A DNA stretch of 64,000 nt from Octopus vulgaris. Lineage: Eukaryota. A program made the position numbers and the translations under genes. Location: NCBI GenBank assembly GCA_951406725.2, contig OX597814.1, positions 156,302,001 to 156,366,000 of the forward strand. The letters run 5' to 3'. Under the pieces are notes generated by a model. That model was not told the origin of the DNA. It searched no databases and saw nothing but the letters and a program-made list of their open reading frames with translations. Positions 3,626 through 62,900 of this stretch are shown piece by piece (the first letter of the stretch is position 1; each line of letters opens with the position of its first letter).

Positions 3626-5114
3626 TGTGTGCGCGCGCTTGTATACGTGTGTGTGTGTGTGTATCTGTGTGTGTGAAATATCAAACATATATATGCATAT
3701 ATATATCATATATAAACTTTGTATATTGCCTATGTATAAATCACACATACACGAAATTATGGGCGTTTGTGTGTGTCTGTGTGTATGTATGTGTGTGCGC
3801 ACGCGCCTGTGTCTGTGTGTTGTATATGTACATATATTCTCTATGTGTACATATATTCTGGTCGCCTCCTCACTTACTTATACTGGTTAACCTCCAATTA
3901 ATGCTATCCTAATAAAGCCAATAAATTTCACACCGAATGCTATTATCTTCAGAAATGCATGACTCTCGTACTTACTAATATCCTTGTTTTGATATATTTT
4001 CTTTAATATTTAATACAAGCTGATATAATCTTAGTTATTAGACATATGTCACACTGCATTAAACAAATCTTTAACACTGTAACCCTTTAATAAAGAAGGC
4101 TGATGTTTATTACGTCGTATGTAGGACTAATATGCTGCCCACTTCACTAATGAGAGCGACCGTATGCAGTGACTTGAACTGCTAGATATAGCAGGCAAGT
4201 TATTAGAAAATAACGAAGAAGACATGAAGCAAAGTGCATTTGGTTGTACAGGTTACAGACAGGTTGGTCACGGCTGGAACGTTTTTCACCGTACGGCAAC
4301 CTAAGTAGGTCTAAAGCTACAATAGTCTAAATTACCTTTACGTGTTTGTTCGTTCGATCTCAGCGGTATATCAACCAGCTATCACCCAAACCACATTCTA
4401 TTGTCTTATCTATTATCATATAGTCCGAAACCAAGGTTGGGGCGGTCATAACTGGAATCTGTCTTTTATTATCGTAATTCTCTTCGATCAGGTTTGACAT
4501 GGAGTTAAACAGCATGTTATTTGCTTTCTAGCTCGGAAACTAATTATATTTCAAGTTCTTACTATCGTAAATACAACCAAATTACTTTCTCGAAGTTCTT
4601 AACAGTAATAAACTACTTTAAACATATCTTGCCTCTACTTCATAAAGAAGATAATTGTATTTTATGGCTGTAATCCTATGTCTTACGTAAAAATATCGGC
4701 AAAAACGATCAATAGACAGTATTATGTTGGTGATTTAAATGCTCCCAGAGGAAATTTATAAATACATACACACACAAATGCACATATTCAGTTATATAGT
4801 TATAGGTAGCCGCAACTCTTACAGAATGTTATAGGCATACATATCTTTGCACACACATACACACACATACACACATATTTGTGTGCGTGAGCAACCGTGC
4901 GATCGTGCATGTCGATAGAATGTTGCCATATTTTACTATCTATCATACATGCTTTAGAATTTGCTTCACACGCCATTTTGTTTTGATATTACTCGTATTT
5001 TTCTCTCGTTGTGTTTATGCTATTGCATATATATTTTCGTGACGAGCGAAACATAAAAACAGAACCAACGGAAAGATAGAAGTTTATTGCCTATTTTTTT
5101 CTTCTTCTGTTCTA

Positions 5115-5290
5115 TGTTTTACATGTTTCAGTCATTGGACTGCGGCCAGACTGGAGCACTGCCTTGAATAGTTTAGTTTAACAAATCAAAACCAGTACTT
5201 AATTTTCTTTAAGTCTGTTACTTATTCTATTCGTCGCTTTCCTTGAACTGCTGATTTACGGAGACGTAAACAAACTAACACCGATTCTGC
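5115..5290 (-). mobile_element. SINE family B, 3' fragment
   Basis: tttcagtcattggactgcggccagactggagcactgcc is the reverse complement of the tail of the copy at 20789-21190. Confidence 0.75.
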
Positions 5291-5382
5291 CAGCTCGCCG
5301 TCCTGACCAAGATAAATATTAACGAAATTCAATAAGCCTTCTATAACACGCACGCACACACACATACACATATAAAGGTGTA

Positions 5383-5436
<54 letters not shown>

Positions 5437-5441
<5 letters not shown>

Positions 5442-5690
5442 GTTGTATACTGTCAATTTAACGTGACAGTAGGGGATTACACCACCGCTGTTTAGCCCTA
5501 GGAAGCATCGACGCTTCCTGATGGCTTCGACACATTTTTTTCCTGTGTTTTTATATATTTACGAAGGGGAGACAAGCACCCCCAGCAGCCAGGCCTGCAT
5601 CTAAAGACACGCATGTTTCAGGATCTTTGTCCATCATCGGTCTAGAGTAGCAAAAGCCTGCCAGCCGCAGATATCTGTCCCGACTTCGTA
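5437..5690 (-). mobile_element. (TA)n-flanked insert with degenerate hammerhead motif (5601-5647)
   Basis: Minus strand reads AGA CCGAUGA uggac-aaa-gauccu GAAA CAUGCG UG UCU. The cleavage triplet GUG is non-canonical. Confidence 0.5.
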
Positions 5691-5837: not shown

Positions 5838-6111
5838 ATAAAACGGTAAGATAACAAAAGAAAGAAAGAGACCTCAATATTATGTAAATAGAGGAAATTT
5901 ATCTATACAATATGTTACATTACTCGGTAGTCAAGATAAAACTCTGAGTTTCAGATGCCGAAGTGGAAATCCACAACACCATCTCTTCGGTTATCTGGCT
6001 ATTTGCAAATAGCCAGATAACCGAAGAGATGGTGTTGTGGATTTCCACTTCGGCATCTGAAACTCAGAGTTTTATCTTGACTACCGAGTAATGTAACATA
6101 TTGTATAGATA
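5836..6111. mobile_element. (TA)n-flanked fold-back element with a perfect 212-bp palindrome (5900-6111)
   Basis: Arms are exact reverse complements around atttg|caaat (6005/6006) with no spacer. A unique tail lies at 5836-5899. Confidence 0.9.
6015..6077 (+). ncRNA. Type I hammerhead-like motif (CCGAAGA core variant); mirror copy at 5934-5996 (-)
   Basis: AGAUAA CCGAAGA GAUG..CAUC u GAAA CUCAGAG UU UUAUCU: stem I AGAUAA/UUAUCU, stem II GAUG/CAUC. Confidence 0.6.
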
Positions 6112-6850: not shown

Positions 6851-6959
6851 GTACATATGCAAGACGGAAACAGGGACTACCATTAGTTTCATAATTCTGA
6901 AAATGCAATAGTCAGACAATCCCGTATAGCTTGCTGCACACAATAATGAAATTATTATA

Positions 6960-7360
6960 ATGCGGTGAGCTGGCAGAAATGTTAGCACGCCGGGAGAAAT
7001 ACTTAGCGGTATTTCGTCTGTCTTTACGTTCTGAGTTCAAGTTCTGCCGAGGTCAACTTTGCCTTTCATCCTTTCGGGGTCGATTAAATACGTACCAGTT
7101 ACGCACTGGGGTCGATGTAATCGACTTAATCCGTTTGTCTGTCCTTGTTTGTCCTCTCTGTGTTTAGCCCCTTGTGGGTAGTAAAGAAATAGGTATTTCG
7201 TCTGTCTTTATGTTCTGAGTTCAAGTTCTGCCGAGGTTAACATTGCCTTTAATCCTTTCGGCGTCGATAAAATTAAGTACCAATTTCGTACTGGTGTCGA
7301 TGTAATCGATTGCCCCCACCTCCCCCAAAATTTCGGGTTTTGTGCCTAGGGTCAAAAAGA
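6960..7360 (+). mobile_element. SINE family A dimer (full unit + headless unit)
   Basis: gcggtgagctggcagaa head, then the gcctttcatcctttcggggtcgat core twice, joined by gggtagtaaagaaata|ggtatttcg. Confidence 0.9.
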
Positions 7361-9494: not shown

Positions 9495-9700
9495 TATATT
9501 TGCTTCAGTCATTCAAATGCGACCATGCTGGAGCACCGCCTTGAAGAGATATCTATCGCGCGAATTGACATTACTTTTTTAAAGTCTAATACTTATTTTA
9601 TCATATCATCTCTTTTCTTGAACCGTTAAGTTATGAGGGACGTCAACAAACCAACATTGATTGTCAATGGGTGGTGGAGCCAAACACAGACACAAAGACA
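9495..9700 (-). mobile_element. SINE family B, 3' fragment
   Basis: ttcagtcattcaaatgcgaccatgctggagcaccgcc..gaaccgttaagttatgagggacgtc. Confidence 0.75.
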
Positions 9701-10053
9701 CACACACACGCACACCCTCACACACACGCACACCCTCACACACACGCACACCCTCTCACACACACACACATATATATAAATATGTGTGTTTATATATATA
9801 TATGTGTGTGTGTGTTTAAAATATATAGGGTAGCGAATATTTTTAGAAATTTCACTACCAGTGGCCTAACATGTATAAAAAGTCAATAGACAACATATTC
9901 CTAATATAAAATATTGTAAATTTAAATACAAGAGAAACTACCCTTTAACAGGGAATTTTACACGCTAGATGAAGCAGTCAAAACGACTAAAACCACATTT
10001 ACGAGCTATTTCGAAGGGAATGAAAAATAAAAACTTTTACCTTGTTATTTGTT

Positions 10054-10127
10054 ACGGTTATACCTAGATTTCAATTTTTTTTAGCAAATAAAATAACTTA
10101 CCAGGCTAAATTCTCATCAGTAACTGC
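10054..10127 (-). ncRNA. Type I hammerhead ribozyme motif
   Basis: Minus strand: gcaGUUA CUGAUGA GAAUUU...aaauu GAAA UCUAGG UA UAACcgu, with a GUA cleavage triplet. Confidence 0.7.
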
Positions 10128-10352
10128 TCCATAACATTAACATATCATTTAGAGACTGGTAGTGAAATTTCTAGAAATATTCCCTAACCTATATATTTTA
10201 CGTATATGATTCTAGCATTTCGAAAATTCAGTTCGGCATTTTTCATTTACTGCCGACTGAAACTGCACTTGCGCGGTGAATTCGAAAAATTATAACATAT
10301 TATGATGAGAAACGTGTTCTTTTGTCTCGAAATTATATGTTAATGTTATGGC

Positions 10353-10426
10353 ACGGTTACTGATGAGAATTTCGTCTGGCAAATTATTTTATTTGCTAAA
10401 ACAATTTGAAACTTAGATATAACCGT
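10353..10426 (+). ncRNA. Type I hammerhead ribozyme motif
   Basis: ACGGUUA CUGAUGA GAAUU..GGCAAAU/AUUUGCU..AAUUU GAAA CUUAGA UA UAACCGU, with a perfect 7-bp stem I. Confidence 0.75.
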
Positions 10427-10608
10427 AAAAAATAACACGGTAAAAGTTAAAATACGTGTTATCATAATAACAACACACTATTAAAATAGCGCATTAAAAT
10501 ACTTTATCATCTCTAGTCAAATAGCAAATAATATTATAAATTGCATTGCTTTAAATATTTTCTAACAATCATTACTAAAAGTCAACGATTGATAATTAGA
10601 AATTATGG

Positions 10609-10675
<67 letters not shown>

Positions 10676-11799: not shown

Positions 11800-12141
11800 G
11801 AGCAGTCATCTAAAAGTTTTTGTGAATCTTGATGTTGACATAAATTCCTTGTTTTTCCTGATGAGAAAGCGGCATAATGTACTCCTTATTCCTTCACAAT
11901 TAGGAATATGCAGCCTTCGAAACATATGTCGAAAATAAAGGAAATTTGTTAATTTGTCGTTCAACTCCATTCTTTCATTTATTCATAAATTTTATAAAAA
12001 TACACACAAATTTCCACACGAAAACACGTAGTCTCTGCCCTAGGCACGTAACTTCAACCGTGTTATTTCTGATGTGAATTTGCTACCCAGGTATCGGTTA
12101 AACGAATTATCCATAAAAAGATATTTCATTTTTCTACTCAA

Positions 12142-16685: not shown

Positions 16686-16918
16686 TTATTTCTTTACTGC
16701 CCACAAGGAGCTACACACAGAGGGGACAAACAAGGACAGGCAAAGGGATTAAGTCGATTATATCGACCCAAGTGCGTAACTGGTACATATGTAATCGACC
16801 CCGAAAGGATGAAAGGCAATGTCGACCTTGGCTGAATTTAAACTCAGAACATAACAGCAGACGAATTACTGCTAAGCATTTCACCCGCCGTGCTAACGTT
16901 TCTGCCAGTTCGCCGCCT
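16686..16918 (-). mobile_element. SINE family A, full monomer with long tail
   Basis: Reverse complement of the head (aaggcggcgaactggcagaaacgttagc) through the tail (gggcagtaaagaaata). Confidence 0.9.
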
Positions 16919-17904
16919 TGTATAAGTGTGTATCTGTACTTATGTAGGTATATCATTAACTCTCCTTATTCAGCGAGATTCTAAAATATTGAGCAAAGAT
17001 AATTTCCCTAAATCCTATATACATACTGTTATCTACAGCCACCTTAAGTATCTCTGTAACGGAATCCTTAAATGACAAGCTCCATTTTTTTTTTCCAGAA
17101 ATAAACGGTATTGAAATATCACGTTACTTTTACTTCTCTTTCATTTTAATTCTAGATTATATAAAGTTAATGTTAATGAAGTTGCATGAAAATTCTTTTA
17201 TGAATCATCTTCTATAAAACTAGATCGTTTATGCGTTGATATACTTACACATTAAACATCATAAAATTGCTTAAACACGCACGGTCCACAACTGTATAAC
17301 ATGCTTATCACATAAACCAGCGGCAATCAGCTTTGAAATATAATCTCACATAAATTCTAATCGGAATTTAATATGTATAAACTATATAATAATACATGTA
17401 GTAGAATTTACAAAATGCTCCTATGCCTGTGACGAACGATAAGATTTCGAAAGTTTGAGTTGTAATTTAAATATGTAATATTCAACTCTTAATAATTATT
17501 ATATACCGCAACATTACACCTTTACCAGCGTTTATATATACCTACATATATATACGCAACAAATTACTCCAAATCGTTGTTAGAGTATCCGCGTAAGTGG
17601 AGTGAAGTCTGGTTAGTTTGTACAGGAATCGAGTCGTATTGGTTATAATAATGAAGTCAGACCAAAGAGTAATATTTTGAAATCATTCAAAACGTGCTTT
17701 TCAGGTTTTCATAATATATAACAGGAAAGGCATCCATTATTATTACAACTAATATGACTCGATGTACAAACAAGTCGGTCTTGACGTCAATTATGCGGAT
17801 ATTACAACAACTATTTTAAGTAGTTTGTTATATTTAAATCGAGTCGAAAATGTTGGTTCCGTACACCACATCTTAGGGTAAAACGAAATACGAACATACA
17901 TATA

Positions 17905-34955: not shown

Positions 34956-37270
<2,315 letters not shown>

Positions 37271-42899: not shown

Positions 42900-44480
42900 C
42901 AATGTTTCTTCATTTATGTTTTCTGTCTCGGCATTTTTGATCATCCTTTGAGTATTTATAAAATGAGAATTTGCTGTTTCTGCACATTTCTAGATGTTCA
43001 CCCACTGGAATATTTCATTGTCTAATCTGCTGCTTTTGTGTTCTTGTTCTTTCACAAAAGCAGTATCTCGTCTGGTCGAAGTAAATTGTTTTGTAGGTGG
43101 GAGAGCTTGCGCAACATAACAGATTTCATGTTTTGCAGTTTCCTGTTTGTATTTATTTGGAAACGGTATCCATTTGTAAATTTTATATTGCATCCCATCC
43201 TCAAACATATTCTACACCCGCAATCTCTGGTAGATTTTACGGATGGTTCAGAGTTATACTCTGTCTTGAATGCTGCCCTTGTTAGTGGTTGCCTAATGAT
43301 TTTGTAGGCTGATATTTACTGTTCTTAATACAGTTTTGTGTATATAGCTCTCTAATTTTGGACTTTGAAATAGGATTGATAGATTTACTTTTATGGTGAT
43401 AAATATGTTTGTAACGCTTGGATAATTTGTGCTGACAAACGAAATAATATTCTCCACAACTTTTTGTTCCAACAGTTCTCAGTTGTAAAAGGAATAATCC
43501 CTTTGTCTTTTGAATACCGTTGTCTATAACTTTCAAAGGATAGTTTCGAACCTGTACAAAGTCAAATTTACCGTAAATTTCAGCCATCCCCTATTGCGCA
43601 AATAAATGTTGCCATTTTATAGAGCATATTCTGTTTGATGTGTGAAGGATGGCAAGAGCAACAGTTAAATATTGTCATAGTGTGTCTGTATTTTTGTGAA
43701 ATATGTCCGTTATTACTTTGCTTCTATGCAGATATCTAAAATCGGTAGGTCAATTTGATTGGGTTTTGTTGTGAATTTAATGAGTAAATGAAAAGTGTTC
43801 AGAATTTCATAAAATCTTTGAAGTTCATAATTTGAATTGCCTAAAGATAAAGCAGTCATCAGATAAAGCATTTCCACTTCCCAATAATACACTTTTAAAA
43901 TTCTCTCCAAATGTTGTCTCTACTTCTTGATATAAGTTTTCTTCTAAGTAAACTATCACCAGGTTAGCATATGAGAGTGCAGCTGTTGTGTCCATAGCTA
44001 TGCCTTTTTCTACCTATTCGTTTTTCCTCCGCAGTTGAATGTGTTTTCTTCCTGTATCAAGTATGTAGCTTAAATAACGGAGTCCATTTTGAATCGGTTA
44101 TTTATAATTTTCCTTTCTATCTATTCAGTATCCCGATACTTTAAAGTCCTAAAGTATGTTGTTCACTAGTATAGAAGCTAACAGCGAAGCTTGTTTAAAT
44201 AGTTCCTTCTGAGATGTTGCATACGACGTGTTTAAGGAAATACATGTCATCTGGAATGCAATTGGGGATCAATGTGCATACGTGTTTGAGAAGTAGAACT
44301 AAAGAGTGATCAGATGTTATTTTAGAGATTAAGCCCTACAATTATTGTTTTAATTGTGAACTCACGTGGTATTACTGCTTCTATGTACTGATTATTTTGT
44401 TTATTTGTGGCTATCAATATTTCCGAGCTTGTAGAGATCTTATGTAATCCATAAAAGTTTATCTCAATAATGTTGAAACT
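42900..44480 (-). mobile_element. Penelope-like element remnant (RT + probable GIY-YIG)
   Basis: Minus strand GIAMDTTAALSYANLVIVYLEE (cf. G.AMG...AP.YANL), FYEILNTFHLLIKFT..LPILDI and RTRTQKQQIR, with many stops and frameshifts. Confidence 0.8.
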
Positions 44481-44638: not shown

Positions 44639-45172
44639 AGGCGACGAAGTGGCAGAATCGTTAGCAGGCCGGGCGAATGCTTAGCAGTATTTCGTCTGCC
44701 GTTACGTTCTGAGTTCAAATTCCGCCAAGGTCGACTTTGCCTTTCATCCTTTCGGGATTGATTAAATAAATACCAGTTAGGCACTGGGATCGATATAATC
44801 GACTTAATCCCTTTGTGTTTAGCCCCCTGTGGGCAATAAAGAAATGCCTAGAGGTATTCCGTCTGTCTTCACGTACTGAGTTCAAATGCCGCCGGGGTCG
44901 ACTTTGCCTTTAATCCTTTCGGGGTCGATAAATTAAGTACTGGTGAAACACTGGGATCGATGTAATCGACTAACTCCTACACCAAAATTTCATGCTTTTT
45001 GCTTATAGTAGAAAGGAATATTTTATCTTTATTGTTTCTGACCATAATAACTATTGCCCCCAAACGGCGAGCTGACAGAACAATTAGCACACTGGACAAA
45101 ATGCATAGCTGCATTTCGTCCGTCCCAACGTTCTGAGTTCAAATTCCACGAAGGTCGACTTGGCCTTTCATC
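44639..45172 (+). mobile_element. SINE family A dimer (44639-45015) plus a truncated copy (45063-45172)
   Basis: Same head and core as the array; junction gggcaataaagaaatgcctaga|ggtattccg. Confidence 0.88.
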
Positions 45173-45319
45173 CAGTTTTTGAATAAAAAAAGACAACGAT
45201 TGAAAGAGTAGCAATGTGAATGATATTCCAGCATGTTCATAAGACTGGGGTGGATGTGTGAAGATTGTGATAGTATATAAATATATATGTGTGTGTGTTA
45301 TGCACTTGTTTGTGCATGC

Positions 45320-48383: not shown

Positions 48384-48433
<50 letters not shown>

Positions 48434-48434
48434 T

Positions 48435-48961
48435 AATAAATATAAGAGAGTGGTCACTATATGACTCACTCTAGCACTAGTAAATCCAAAAGGTTTCAAC
48501 CACAAAAATACATGTTTCCCATGAAAGTCAGTACGATTGTTAGCTCACACGAACAGGGCAAATAAAAAATAACAAAAATACAGATTATTTTGGGACAATT
48601 GTTTCGCTATTAATGAATTAAATGTAATTTTACTCACAAAAAATTACATTTAATTCATTAATAGCGAAACAATTGTCCCAAAATAATCTGTATTTTTGTT
48701 ATTTTTTATTTGCCCTGTTCGTGTGAGCTAACAATCGTACTGACTTTCATGGGAAACATGTATTTTTGTGGTTGAAACCTTTTGGATTTACTAGTGCTAG
48801 AGTGAGTCATATAGTGACCACTCTCTTATATTTATTTTTGTATAAAATATTATAATATATTATAAAATATTATAATAATCCAGGTTTCTCGGGGCACTGG
48901 GCCACTTGGTGTTGAATAGATATACTATTAAATTAGTATCTAATTCTCTCACCCTTATTAA

Positions 48962-48999: not shown

Positions 49000-50674
49000 C
49001 ATATTATACGACTAAACGCACGCACCCTATTAAGTAAGATTGTTCTGTTTATCAAGTTCGCCTTGATATTAACTCTCACGCGACTCTGCCTCTTTCTTTC
49101 TTTCTCTCCCATTCCCTTTTTCGTCCTTTTTCCCTCACTTAACTTGTCTCTTCCTCTCTCTCTCCCCCTCACTGTTCTTCATGGTCTCCTCGCACCATTC
49201 CCCTTCTTCTCTCTCTTCCTCTTGCTCCTCCTCCCCATTCCCGTCGTCCATCTGCGACGTACTTCCGTCGTAACTGCTTTCCTGTCTTTCCTCACCTGCC
49301 TTCTAAGGCCACTGGTCGACATCTTCCTCTCTCGTCGTCCACTATAATCCAGCGTTTGCAATACTTTTTTCGTCTGGCGTTAACAGCCCTTCTTATCTTG
49401 TTCTCCTTGTCCTGTCTCTCACTGTTATATATTTATTTTTCCACTGTTTATATATATATTTTTTACTGTTTATATGTTTGTACTGTCGTTACCGTCTTGC
49501 CTTTTTTTTTTTTTTTACCCCTCCGCGACAAGATCTCAGAATTTTAATTGATTTGCTTGTCTCGGGAAGGAATTTTTCATTCGAAGTATACGTCTCGCTT
49601 TTATCCTTCGAAACGTTTAGTAGATGAAACTTTAGCGACTGAAGAAGGGGATTTTTCGTTGTGCTTATTGTCCTGTATCTCCTTTTTTTGCTTGTCTTGT
49701 TCCTTGGTTTGTGTCTATGTTTTTCGTCTCTCTATGTGTTCGACGTCCTTTTGGTGTCCTGTACACATATATGCGTGTATATGTACATGTAGAGGTAGGT
49801 ACGTACATACATGTTTATATATATGCATATATTTTATTAACATATTATACGACTAAACGCACGCACCCTATTAAGTAAGATTGTTCTGTTTATCAAGTTC
49901 GCCTTGATATTAACTCTCACGCGACTCTGCCTCTTTCTTTCTTTCTCTCCCATTCCCTTTTTCGTCCTTTTTCCCTCACTTAACTTGTCTCTTCCTCTCT
50001 CTCTCCCCCTCACTGTTCTTCATGGTCTCCTCGCACCATTCCCCTTCTTCTCTCTCTTCCTCTTGCTCCTCCTCCCCCATTCCCGTCGTCCATCTGCGAC
50101 GTACTTCCGTCGTAACTGCTTTCCTGTCTTTCCTCACCTGCCTTCTAAGGCCACTGGTCGACATCTTCCTCTCTCGTCGTCCACTATAATCCAGCGTTTG
50201 CAATACTTTTTTCGTCTGGCGTTAACAGCCCTTCTTATCTTGTTCTCCTTGTCCTGTCTCTCACTGTTATATATTTATTTTTCCACTGTTTATATATATA
50301 TTTTTTACTGTTTATATGTTTGTACTGTCGTTACCGTCTTGCCTTTTTTTTTACCCCTCCGCGACAAGATCTCAGAATTTTAATTGATTTGCTTGTCTCG
50401 GGAAGGAATTTTTCATTCGAAGTATACGTCTCGCTTTTATCCTTCGAAACGTTTAGTAGATGAAACTTTAGCGACTGAAGAAGGGGATTTTTCGTTGTGC
50501 TTATTGTCCTGTATCTCCTTTTTTTGCTTGTCTTGTTCCTTGGTTTGTGTCTATGTTTTTCGTCTCTCTATGTGTTCGACGTCCTTTTGGTGTCCTGTAC
50601 ACATATATGCGTGTATATGTACATGTAGAGGTAGGTACGTACATACATGTTTATATATATGCATATATTTTATT

Positions 50675-50681
<7 letters not shown>
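48997..50681. repeat. Near-perfect head-to-tail dimer (841 + 836 bp) inside (TA)n
   Basis: Units start taacatat at 48997, 49838 and 50674. The only differences I see are homopolymer lengths. Confidence 0.92.
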
Positions 50682-50714
<33 letters not shown>

Positions 50715-50719
<5 letters not shown>

Positions 50720-51160
50720 GAAAACATTATAGAAATAACACGTGTCTCATCCTTACAAATTATAATTTTTCGAATCCACCGCGCAAGCGCAGTTTCAATC
50801 GGCAGCAAATAAAAATTACGATTGAACTTCAGAAATTGCTAGAATCATTTCTTAAATGTATATAGGGTACATAAAAATTATAGAAATATTTTTCTACCAG
50901 TGGCCTAGTATGTATACAAAGGTCAATAGACATATTGTGCATATAACAATTAGTGTACATTTATACACAAAGAGGCAAGCTTTTAACAGGTTCCCTAACA
51001 TATTGGTCCGGCTGTAAAACATGGTAAATGTTTTTATTTTTCATTCCCTTCGAAATAGCTCTTAACTGTTGTTTGGACTCTTTGACTGTTTTTTCTAGTA
51101 TGTCAGGCAACCTGTTAAAGGCTTGCCTCGTTGTGTATAGATGTACACTAATGTACATAT
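50715..51160. mobile_element. Second member of the 9813-10450 family, with a different inversion point
   Basis: 50737-50850 matches the reverse complement of 10206-10318; 50855-50990 matches 9817-9952; 51022-51120 matches the reverse complement of 9942-10041. Internal inverted repeat 50951-50992 / 51109-51150. Confidence 0.8.
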
Positions 51161-51959: not shown

Positions 51960-52376
51960 TAATAAAATAGGGTCATTATAAATTATTATTACCAGTGGCT
52001 TAGCACAAAAAACGAATTAGTCATTAGATTATATATTATTCATATAGAAATACAATAAGAGGCTTCCAAATAGGAAAGCGTTGTGCTAGAACACAAAAAG
52101 GGATAAATTCACGAAAGGAATGAAAATTAAAAGCATTTACCATCTCAACTATATCCCAGGCCGTTAGCTCTACATGTGGATCTAGCAGTCTGTACGCCAG
52201 GATTATGAAGGCTGTCCCACTGAAGAAACTTGCCTTCAGCAAATATTTTTGCTGGAAATAGAAACCGTCCGTCTGGGATATAGTTGAGATGGTAAATGTT
52301 TTTAATTTTCATTCCTTTCCTGAATGTATCCCTTTTTTGTGTTCTAGCACAACACTTTCCTATTTGGAAGCCTCTT

Positions 52377-52719: not shown

Positions 52720-52951
52720 CACACCGGAGTAAACACATAAATGTGAAACAAGGTGGAAAAAAGAGTACTCAAATACCAGTGGTAGAGTAATATGCTTTAT
52801 TTAAAGCAACAGAAAATTCAACAAAACCTGTTACTCTGAGTTTCCCGTTGCTGTTCATCGGACAGATTTTTCTAGCAAAAACTGTCCGATGAATGGCAAC
52901 GGGAAACTCAGAGTAACAGGTTTTGTTGAATTTTCTGCTGCTTTAAATAAA

Positions 52952-61379: not shown

Positions 61380-62900
61380 GGAAAAATGGGGACCATTTCC
61401 CCTTGTGGGATAACGTTAAAATAATAGACCGAGAATACCACAGGAAAATACGAAATACAGACAAATGACTCAACACTAAAGTAAACTACTACACATGTAC
61501 AATCTCCCTAAGATTCACAAGGATGGTATTCCATTAAGACCTATAGTGAGCTGTAGAAGTTCAGTATGTCAGCCACTGAGTCACTTCCTTGTGGATACAA
61601 TCAGTCCATTTGCAGGAAAGTCAACATCGTACGTGAATAATTCCACCCACTTCACAGAATTCTTTAAAGATGCCATCATTGAATCCAACCAGATGGTGAG
61701 TCTAGATGTGATAAGTCTGTTCACCTAAGTCCCAACTGGTGAAGCACTATCGGTGATTAAAGAAAAACTAGCGACAAACACCCATCTAAAAGAACGCACT
61801 AATATACTAATAAGAAACTTGATGGGAATGTTGACCTTCTGTGTAGAAACTACCTACTTCAGTATAGACACTGATATATATCAATAGGAAGAGGGTTTAG
61901 CTATGGGTTTCCTCATTATCACCGATATTAGCCAATATGTACATAGAATACTTTGAGAATTTGGCTTTAGGATCAACGCCACTAAAACTAACCCTATGGC
62001 TGCGATATGTTGATGACACCTTTATATTCCGGCCCCACCAGGAAGATGTCCAAGTGATGTTAGATCATGTAAACTCAATAATAAAGCCATCAATACAGTT
62101 CACAATAGAAAAGGAAAAGAGACAATCAACTAGTATTCCTGGACGTATTAATAACAAGCATCAAGTATGGATTCAGGACATCCGTAAACCGCAAGCCGAC
62201 CTTCACTGGACGATACCTAAACTTCAATTCCCACCATCCATACAGTGTAAAGAGAGGGATTGCTCAGTGCCTAAAACATCGAGAATATAAGTAGCGATTG
62301 TGATACCCACCACAAAGAAATGATCAAGCTCAGTAACAATCTGTTAAGCAACAACTACCCCCAAAACATACTATCCACTCCAATTATAAAAAAAAAGAGA
62401 GGATGAAACCAATGAACTGTCCATAGTCTGTCTACCATGTGGATGGCCTATCCGAAAAGATACAAAAGATTTGCGGCTCATATGATATCAGGACAGTATT
62501 CTAGAGTAATACAACACTTCGCAAATATCTCCTTCCAGTAAAACCACCAATAAAAGACAATATGATCAAAAGCTGCGTGTATTCTATCCCATGCAGCTGT
62601 GGTAGGTTATACGAAGGCGGGACATACTGCCCGCTCAAAATAAGGGGAGAGGAACACCGCAAAGCTGTGACATGAGGAGATATTGATAAATTGGGTATAG
62701 CTGATCATGTATGGAAAAATGGAAACAACCTCCCTCTGTGGGATTAAGTTAAAATAATAGACAGAGAACATCACTGGAAAATACGAAAACTAAAGGAAGC
62801 AGCACATATGCTAGACACAACAACCGCCTAAGCAGACCCAGTGCAGATATGAATTGCATATGGAAACCGGTATTAAGGAAATATAGGAAAATATTAGATT
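61380..62900 (+). mobile_element. Penelope-like element: RT + GIY-YIG, decayed, with a short duplicated endonuclease fragment at 61380-61455
   Basis: YNLPKIHKDGIPLRPIVS, MVSLDVISLFT, GLAMG, WLRYVDDTF, PSIQFTIEKE, CVYSIPCSCGRLY, IADHVWKNG, LKEAAHM. Confidence 0.92.

What the first reader, a model, noticed from the sequence alone, without database searches (positions are those of the whole stretch)
9813..10450. Family reconstructs as a circularly permuted ~470-nt monomer with one hammerhead
In ribozyme sense, the minus arm (10155 to 9813) reads HHR-D-E-C-B. The plus arm (10155 to 10450) reads B-A-HHR. The relative at 50715-51160 reads C-B-A. Segment B therefore lies both downstream and upstream of the HHR, closing a circle HHR-D-E-C-B-A of roughly 470 nt with no ORF. 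That is what reverse transcription of a circular or concatemeric RNA would leave. The two HHR copies complement each other's defects and give the consensus ACGGUUA CUGAUGA..GAAAC CUAG GUA UAACCGU.
Basis: partly seen in the sequence, partly recalled or inferred. Interest (0 to 1): 0.75.

Follow-up and report, generated by a model that had tools for sequence, protein, structure and literature searches.

The report
Aged hammerhead retrozyme, Penelope-type insertion
This is an old, decayed copy of a common 460-base non-coding jumping repeat that carries a predicted self-cutting RNA motif and was likely pasted into TA repeats by Penelope-like enzymes, a known kind of element whose RNA circle remains untested.

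Summary
Window 9815-10448 is two back-to-back arms of a ~460-nt non-coding unit. The closed order HHR-D-E-C-B-A is real: 32 of 195 arms mapped in 137 loci of this genome repeat 60 or more bases of the unit head to tail, the longest 2.1 units. The type I hammerhead shows compensatory changes across three subfamilies that are 66-74% alike. The insertions carry Penelope-like (PLE) marks. 151 of 195 3' ends fall in two internal windows ~85 nt apart, mostly running into (TA)n. 5' ends are scattered. 40 of 137 loci have an inverted second arm, and 20 of 22 classifiable pairs use one site each. Ends do not sit at the GUA cut site, and most copies read through it. So it is a non-LTR retrozyme likely mobilised in trans by a PLE; no homologous autonomous partner was found. 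A circular RNA template is plausible (~55%) but unproven; uncut tandem RNA would leave the same permutation. Copies average ~6.5% from their family majority, so the family is probably inactive. The scan already noted younger families of this kind (359-495 nt) in this genome; this family had no look-alike. New member of a known kind.

The parts
9815..10156 (-). Arm 1 (subfamily F1): end of A, HHR, D, E, C, B; unit u427 to u305; 3' end at site B
   Evidence: 93.8% to family majority
10155..10448 (+). Arm 2 (F1): B, A, HHR; u260 to u91; 3' end cut short, not at site A or B
10155..10156 (.). Inversion junction of the two 5' ends, 2-nt overlap
   Evidence: spanned by a contig of another run
10054..10127 (-). 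Type I hammerhead copy 1: core 10120-10114, GAAA 10072-10069, GUA 10063-10061, predicted cut 10061/10060; mismatches in stems I and II
   Evidence: sequence; fold z -0.19
10353..10426 (+). Type I hammerhead copy 2: core 10360-10366, GAAA 10408-10411, AUA 10417-10419, predicted cut 10419/10420; stem III mismatch
   Evidence: sequence; fold z -3.96 with stem I and the distal hairpin formed
9817..9830 (-). Site B, TA-rich internal 3'-end site (u292-311), inferred start of reverse transcription for arm 1
   Evidence: 57 of 195 arm ends in u294-320
9895..9921 (-). Site A, TA-rich internal site (u~203-230); passed through here, but the commonest 3' end in the family
   Evidence: 94 of 195 arm ends in u208-238
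9690..9814 (.). CA/TA microsatellite next to the site-B end (likely target)
10449..10612 (+). Internal piece of an unrelated, longer AT-rich repeat, joined to arm 2; not part of the unit
   Evidence: 41 matches; family extends over 1.2 kb
50715..51003 (-). Relative, subfamily F2, arm u159 to u426, then a short piece resembling site B running into (TA)n
51005..51160 (+). Relative, F2, inverted arm u58 to u220, ending at site A

Best explanation
It is a decayed two-armed insertion of a dispersed, non-coding ~460-nt repeat with a type I hammerhead motif (a non-LTR retrozyme), likely copied into TA microsatellites in trans by a Penelope-like RT/GIY-YIG protein. Shown: closed unit order, conserved hammerhead fold, no ORF, two fixed internal 3'-end sites ~85 nt apart, scattered 5' ends, inverted arm pairs that nearly always use one site each, and shared variants between rounds and arms of one locus. 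Inferred: tandem transcripts are cut by the ribozyme (in F1 probably as a dimer, since stem III is short and palindromic) and may be ligated into a ~460-nt circle. A PLE protein, probably Neptune-like, would cut both strands of a (TA)n target, prime reverse transcription from both ends at sites A and B, read through the cut site into the next round, and stop early. The two cDNAs would then join 5' to 5', giving the inversion. At this locus arm 2 later lost its 3' end, or landed in an older repeat.
For: Family size: 2931 and 3552 first-look candidates, 40 scored each. Closure. Hammerhead: 88.4% of cells paired against 77.7% in shuffles (0/500); 12 of 22 pairs change on both sides, 6 of 7 in stem I; slid controls give at most 48.8%. 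Core intact in 53 of 80 F1 and 32 of 43 F2 copies. 3' ends: 94 at A, 57 at B, 44 elsewhere, of 195; 49 of 58 at A or B in end-unbiased sets. (TA)n follows 108 of 151 A/B ends against 15% of random flank positions. Inverted 5'-5' pairs in 40 of 137 loci, with AB 20, AA 1, BB 1 and 18 unclassifiable (p about 6e-5); no 3'-3' pair in 97 loci. Shared derived variants: tandem rounds 63 against 19 expected between loci; inverted arms 90 against 27. The genome holds intact 781-aa RT + GIY-YIG frames with a Cys-rich linker, whose copies also end in (TA)n. Literature: PLE insertion anatomy (PMC8557442, passages); two internal RT start sites, both strands extended, unprocessed RNA used (PMC11167929, parts 1-2 of 4); retrozyme circles and PLE as candidate helper (PMC7229834, parts 2-4 of 6).
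Against: No autonomous partner homologous to the unit was found. The young Neptune-like terminal repeat shows no similarity (one of six alignments reached 2/200 shuffles, on the opposite strand). None of 30 GIY-YIG loci carries the unit as its own terminus, and no PLE coding remnant lies upstream of an arm in 97 loci. In vitro the anole PLE starts at RNA sites not homologous to the cut DNA (PMC11167929), whereas sites A and B here are TA-like, so the priming detail may differ. 44 of 195 3' ends are elsewhere, this locus's own plus arm among them. 17 of those 44 are also followed by (TA)n. The covariation set was picked for intact cores and comes from three related subfamilies. Cleavage, expression and circles are untested.
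Confidence: 0.8

Rival explanations
1. Template question, first reader's version: the template was a covalently closed ~460-nt RNA circle that the RT ran round more than once.
For: 48 of 58 arms read through the cut site; rounds within an arm share variants and show no consistent first-round/second-round difference; the ribozyme fold is conserved over three subfamilies; circles are shown for coral, mussel and axolotl retrozymes (PMC7229834). Internal priming would shorten linear arrays each generation unless a circle or a template jump rebuilds them (inference).
Against: No array over 2.1 units among the 40 best matches to a dimer query; median arm 269-304 nt; the anole PLE uses uncut RNA and needs no HHR cleavage in vitro (PMC11167929).
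Confidence: 0.55
2. Template question, alternative: the template was a linear uncut tandem transcript, or linear monomers joined by RT template jumping; no circle is needed.
For: Short arrays; PLE partial tandems are the same kind of structure; a template jump within the unit is visible in the relative at 50715.
Against: Cut linear monomers should leave 5' ends at u62, but only 1 of 58 lies in u57-66; a purely uncut cycle gives no clear reason to conserve the ribozyme.
Confidence: 0.4
3. The arms are only 5'-truncated terminal repeats (pLTRs) of an autonomous PLE, not a separate non-autonomous family.
For: PLE pLTRs carry type I HHRs, and opposite-strand HHR pairs 100-700 bp apart are described for PLEs (PMC4209133, passages).
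Against: Arms wrap back into the unit rather than into coding sequence (32 tandem arms); 5' ends cover the whole circle; flanks shared between loci were other repeats, with no shared PLE-coding upstream flank.
Confidence: 0.07
4. DNA-level origin: a satellite or foldback element rearranged by recombination, with a chance hammerhead-like motif.
For: No Rfam hammerhead match; the minus copy folds no better than shuffles.
Against: Polar ends, dispersal over most large contigs, fixed 3' sites, compensatory stem changes and an invariant core.
Confidence: 0.03

Closest known systems
Metazoan non-LTR retrozymes (Cervera and de la Pena 2020, PMC7229834; Li, Clavereau and Pollet 2026, bioRxiv 10.64898/2026.07.22.740005)
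   Same: Short, AT-rich, non-coding tandem unit with one type I hammerhead; many dispersed copies; PLEs present in the same genome.
   Different: Unit ~460 nt, just above the 150-450 bp quoted in 2020 but within the 51-972 bp of 2026; stem II region ~41 nt with a distal hairpin; arrays at most ~2 units and aged; two fixed 3' ends and inverted arms, not described in the parts of those papers that I read; no homologous PLE pLTR found, unlike 24 of 57 Xenopus families.
Penelope-like elements, EN+ (Neptune/Poseidon; PMC8557442, PMC11167929, PMC4209133)
   Same: 5' truncation, partial tandems, inverted 5'-adjacent copy, extension at one end only, microsatellite targets, type I HHR with short palindromic stem III.
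   Different: No RT/GIY-YIG ORF; the gap between the two end sites is ~85 nt against a 30-40-bp tail; the end sites resemble the TA target.
Non-autonomous Chlamys PLEs such as MRC1 (PMC8557442, passage)
   Same: Non-coding, head-to-tail insertions made by a PLE in trans.
   Different: Those resemble their autonomous family at the 3' end and mostly lack HHRs; algal.

Membership tests
Non-LTR retrozyme | Type I hammerhead core and stems in each unit | tested here: met
   no Rfam match
Non-LTR retrozyme | Short non-coding unit in head-to-tail repeats | tested here: met
   periods mostly 446-475 nt; ATG ORFs at most 73 aa in 27 units
Non-LTR retrozyme | Many dispersed copies, GC under 50% | tested here: met
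   2-kb bins around the locus 28-34% GC
Non-LTR retrozyme | Two consecutive units with complete HHRs ('active' criterion of Li et al.) | tested here: inconclusive
   not met at this locus (HHRs on opposite strands); met in L067; L014 and L064 have a damaged copy
Non-LTR retrozyme | No LTR, PBS or PPT | not tested
   no PBS/PPT search was run; no terminal direct repeat or TSD seen at this locus
Non-LTR retrozyme | Self-cleavage of the RNA | not testable with these tools
   needs an in vitro assay
Non-LTR retrozyme | Accumulation as circular RNA | not testable with these tools
   only contigs were available, which show no strand or ends
Autonomous Penelope-like element | ORF with RT and GIY-YIG | tested here: not met
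PLE-type insertion (works like) | 5' truncation, partial tandem, inverted 5' copy, tail at one end, microsatellite bias | tested here: met
PLE-derived non-autonomous element | Sequence shared with the terminal repeat of an autonomous PLE | tested here: inconclusive
   none in 30 GIY-YIG loci plus 12 longer stretches; only 150 of 6136 candidates were scored

The most novel reading that the evidence does not exclude
Each insertion was written from one ligated RNA circle by a PLE protein dimer priming from both strands of one (TA)n break at two different fixed sites (A and B). This would explain the PLE 'tail at one end plus inverted copy' pattern in general and show the route conserved across three subfamilies only 66-74% alike.
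Probability: 0.4. Interest if true: 0.6.

Novelty: new member of a known kind. Interest (0 to 1): 0.33.

Why it matters
Retrozyme mobilisation by PLEs has been proposed from co-occurrence and pLTR similarity (PMC7229834; bioRxiv 10.64898/2026.07.22.740005). This family adds insertion-scar evidence, in particular that paired arms use one end site each, which is testable with the published PLE in vitro system. A full-text search for 'retrozyme' with 'cephalopod' listed one work, on Naiads, and 'hammerhead ribozyme' with 'octopus' listed none on this subject, so such families may be unreported in the held library. However, the element class is known, this family is old, and younger families in the same genome are better material for the same question.

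Tried and rejected
1) Idea that 5' ends pile up at the ribozyme cut site: 13 of 39 F2 arms began at u57-79 in the first set, but with queries placed at u~90-200 only 1 of 58 began in u57-66. Rejected as query bias. 2) Rfam: no hammerhead at E<=10 on 781 nt; none among the 150 of 171 rows shown for the window. 3) Partner search: the unit profile hit only L124 and L161 among GIY-YIG loci; these are copies of a third subfamily (F3, periods mostly 474-507 nt; 66-68% to F1/F2) flanked by TA or CA runs and read as independent insertions. 4) Expression: no RNA holder listed. Contigs of four guessed-RNA runs carry family pieces, but they show no strand, end or circle, and DNA may be present; not used as evidence. 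5) TSD search at this locus: none. 6) The dedupe over-merged nine distinct loci; it was redone and the counts are not used. 7) Four of 31 natural units were dropped because the anchor motif was mutated; two duplicate arms were dropped; arms under 30 bits were left out of counts. 8) In the covariation alignment the F3 stem II is out of register, which lowers the stem II figures. 9) The uniform-null p-values for end clustering ignore query selection and are not relied on.

Full report
Setting. The window lies in a 2.8-Gb, microsatellite-rich animal genome. Earlier scan notes call it an octopus; I did not check that.

Observation. On a 462-column unit profile (u1 = C of CUGAUGA; predicted cut u61/62) the locus is a minus arm u427 to u305 (10156-9815) and a plus arm u260 to u91 (10155-10448), joined 5' to 5' with a 2-nt overlap. 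A contig from another run crosses the junction with no difference. The minus arm ends in a CA/TA microsatellite. The plus arm stops early and abuts an internal piece of another repeat, so its original 3' end is probably lost. The relative at 50715-51160 is a second subfamily (F2, 74% to F1) with the same two-armed form.

Family. DNA searches gave 2931, 2076 (F2 query) and 3552 first-look candidates, of which 40 were scored each time; these are not copy numbers. After removing duplicates I mapped 195 arms (124 F1, 71 F2) in 137 loci. Head-to-tail periods are mostly 446-475 nt. The longest arm is 981 nt, 2.1 units. Copies average 93.5% to their family majority, and the best arms over 200 nt reach 96.5%: the family is old. 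No unit has an ATG ORF over 73 aa (27 units). A third subfamily, F3 (359 candidates), is 66-68% alike and, in the flanks I viewed, mostly ends at the homologous sites.

Ribozyme. All three subfamilies share the core CUGA-N-GA, GAAA and a GUH triplet (GUA, GUC, GUU), with stem I enclosing both ends (type I), a long stem II with a distal hairpin, and a 2-3-bp stem III, palindromic in F1 and F3. On 36 copies chosen for an intact core, 88.4% of cells pair (shuffles 77.7%, 0/500), 12 of 22 pairs change on both sides, and stem I has 6 of 7; sliding partners drops pairing to 16-49%. Relatedness inflates such counts, but the between-subfamily swaps in stem I are clean. Cores are intact in 53 of 80 F1 and 32 of 43 F2 copies. 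A short palindromic stem III is described as needing a dimer (PMC4209133, passages). Rfam has no match. One natural monomer folds at z -3.69.

Insertion anatomy. 3' ends: 94 at site A (u208-238, peak 218-220), 57 at site B (u294-320), 44 elsewhere. With queries placed at u~90-200, 49 of 58 end at A or B. (TA)n follows 108 of 151 A/B ends, 17 of 44 others and 15% of random flank positions. 5' ends are spread round the unit; 48 of 58 arms read through the cut site and 1 of 58 starts at it. Forty of 137 loci have a divergent inverted pair: 20 AB, 1 AA, 1 BB, 18 with an unclassified end; the two arms are never from different subfamilies. Tandem rounds share 63 derived variants against 19 expected between loci, and inverted arms 90 against 27; this holds without CpG sites. 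Both arms and both rounds thus came from the same or identical templates.

Comparison. These are the PLE marks given in PMC8557442 (passages): 5' truncation, partial tandems, an inverted 5'-adjacent copy, a tail at one end, microsatellite bias. PMC11167929 (parts 1-2 of 4) shows an anole PLE cutting and extending both strands of AT-rich DNA from two internal RNA start sites, using uncut RNA. The unit itself fits non-LTR retrozymes (PMC7229834, parts 2-4 of 6), proposed as non-autonomous PLE derivatives (bioRxiv 10.64898/2026.07.22.740005, parts 1-3 of 5).

Helper. The genome has many GIY-YIG matches (148 of 150 scored; 6136 candidates), including intact 781-aa RT + GIY-YIG frames with a Cys-rich linker, which I read as Neptune-like from the linker described in PMC8557442. 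Their copies also end in (TA)n, but their terminal repeat is not homologous to the unit. The actual partner is unidentified and may be extinct.

Mechanism. Shown: anatomy and statistics above. Inferred: transcription of tandem copies, self-cleavage, possible ligation, and PLE priming from both strands of a (TA)n break at A and B, with early termination and 5'-5' joining. Circle versus uncut multimer or template jump cannot be told from the DNA (about 55 to 40). RNA data were not informative.

Earlier scan notes. After I had recorded my reading, look-ups showed many notes on younger 359-495-nt families in this genome with the same model, and no look-alike of this sequence. They are unchecked AI notes and are not counted as support.

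Verdict. Real; new member of a known kind; interest 0.33.

Noticed in passing
L154:244-747 and 4957-5460; L128, L137, L147 3' ends: A young Neptune-like PLE has a 479-aa frame upstream of the 781-aa RT/GIY-YIG frame. About 100 nt before its 3' end it has a minimal hammerhead-like motif whose core reads UUGAUAA (U3-A8 in place of C3-G8), with a short stem II and a palindromic stem III.
   Followed up: partly
window 11853-11936: Complete type I hammerhead of a different family (54-nt stem II region, GUC triplet), also seen in L128, L184 and L245.
   Followed up: no
window 52090-52350: Long palindrome holding a hammerhead-like motif and sharing u80-110 sequence with the unit; a distant relative (19 bits).
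   Followed up: no
window 10449-10612; L274-L277: Piece of an AT-rich repeat over 1.2 kb long; L277 carries a hammerhead-like motif on the opposite strand.
   Followed up: partly
window 5941-6070, 52830-52930, 48411-48860: Near-perfect DNA palindromes; the first two share the same terminal 12-mer and look like a MITE family. Their Rfam miRNA matches are below the gathering scores.
   Followed up: no
window 35187-37257, 6883-7322, 44641-45173, 16687-16922: Tandem and dispersed copies of a ~232-nt SINE-like unit; my scan found no canonical hammerhead in it.
   Followed up: partly
window 61447-62385 and 43462-44004: Decayed PLE-like RT remnants, 26-36% to the intact protein.
   Followed up: no
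window 49765-49849 and 50601-50686 (L061:1-635 and 842-1472): Local tandem duplication of about 840-bp period, 98.7% identical, just left of the F2 relative.
   Followed up: no
L129, L229, L244, L085: Several further hammerhead families with long stem II and palindromic stem III occur in flanks of unrelated loci.
   Followed up: no
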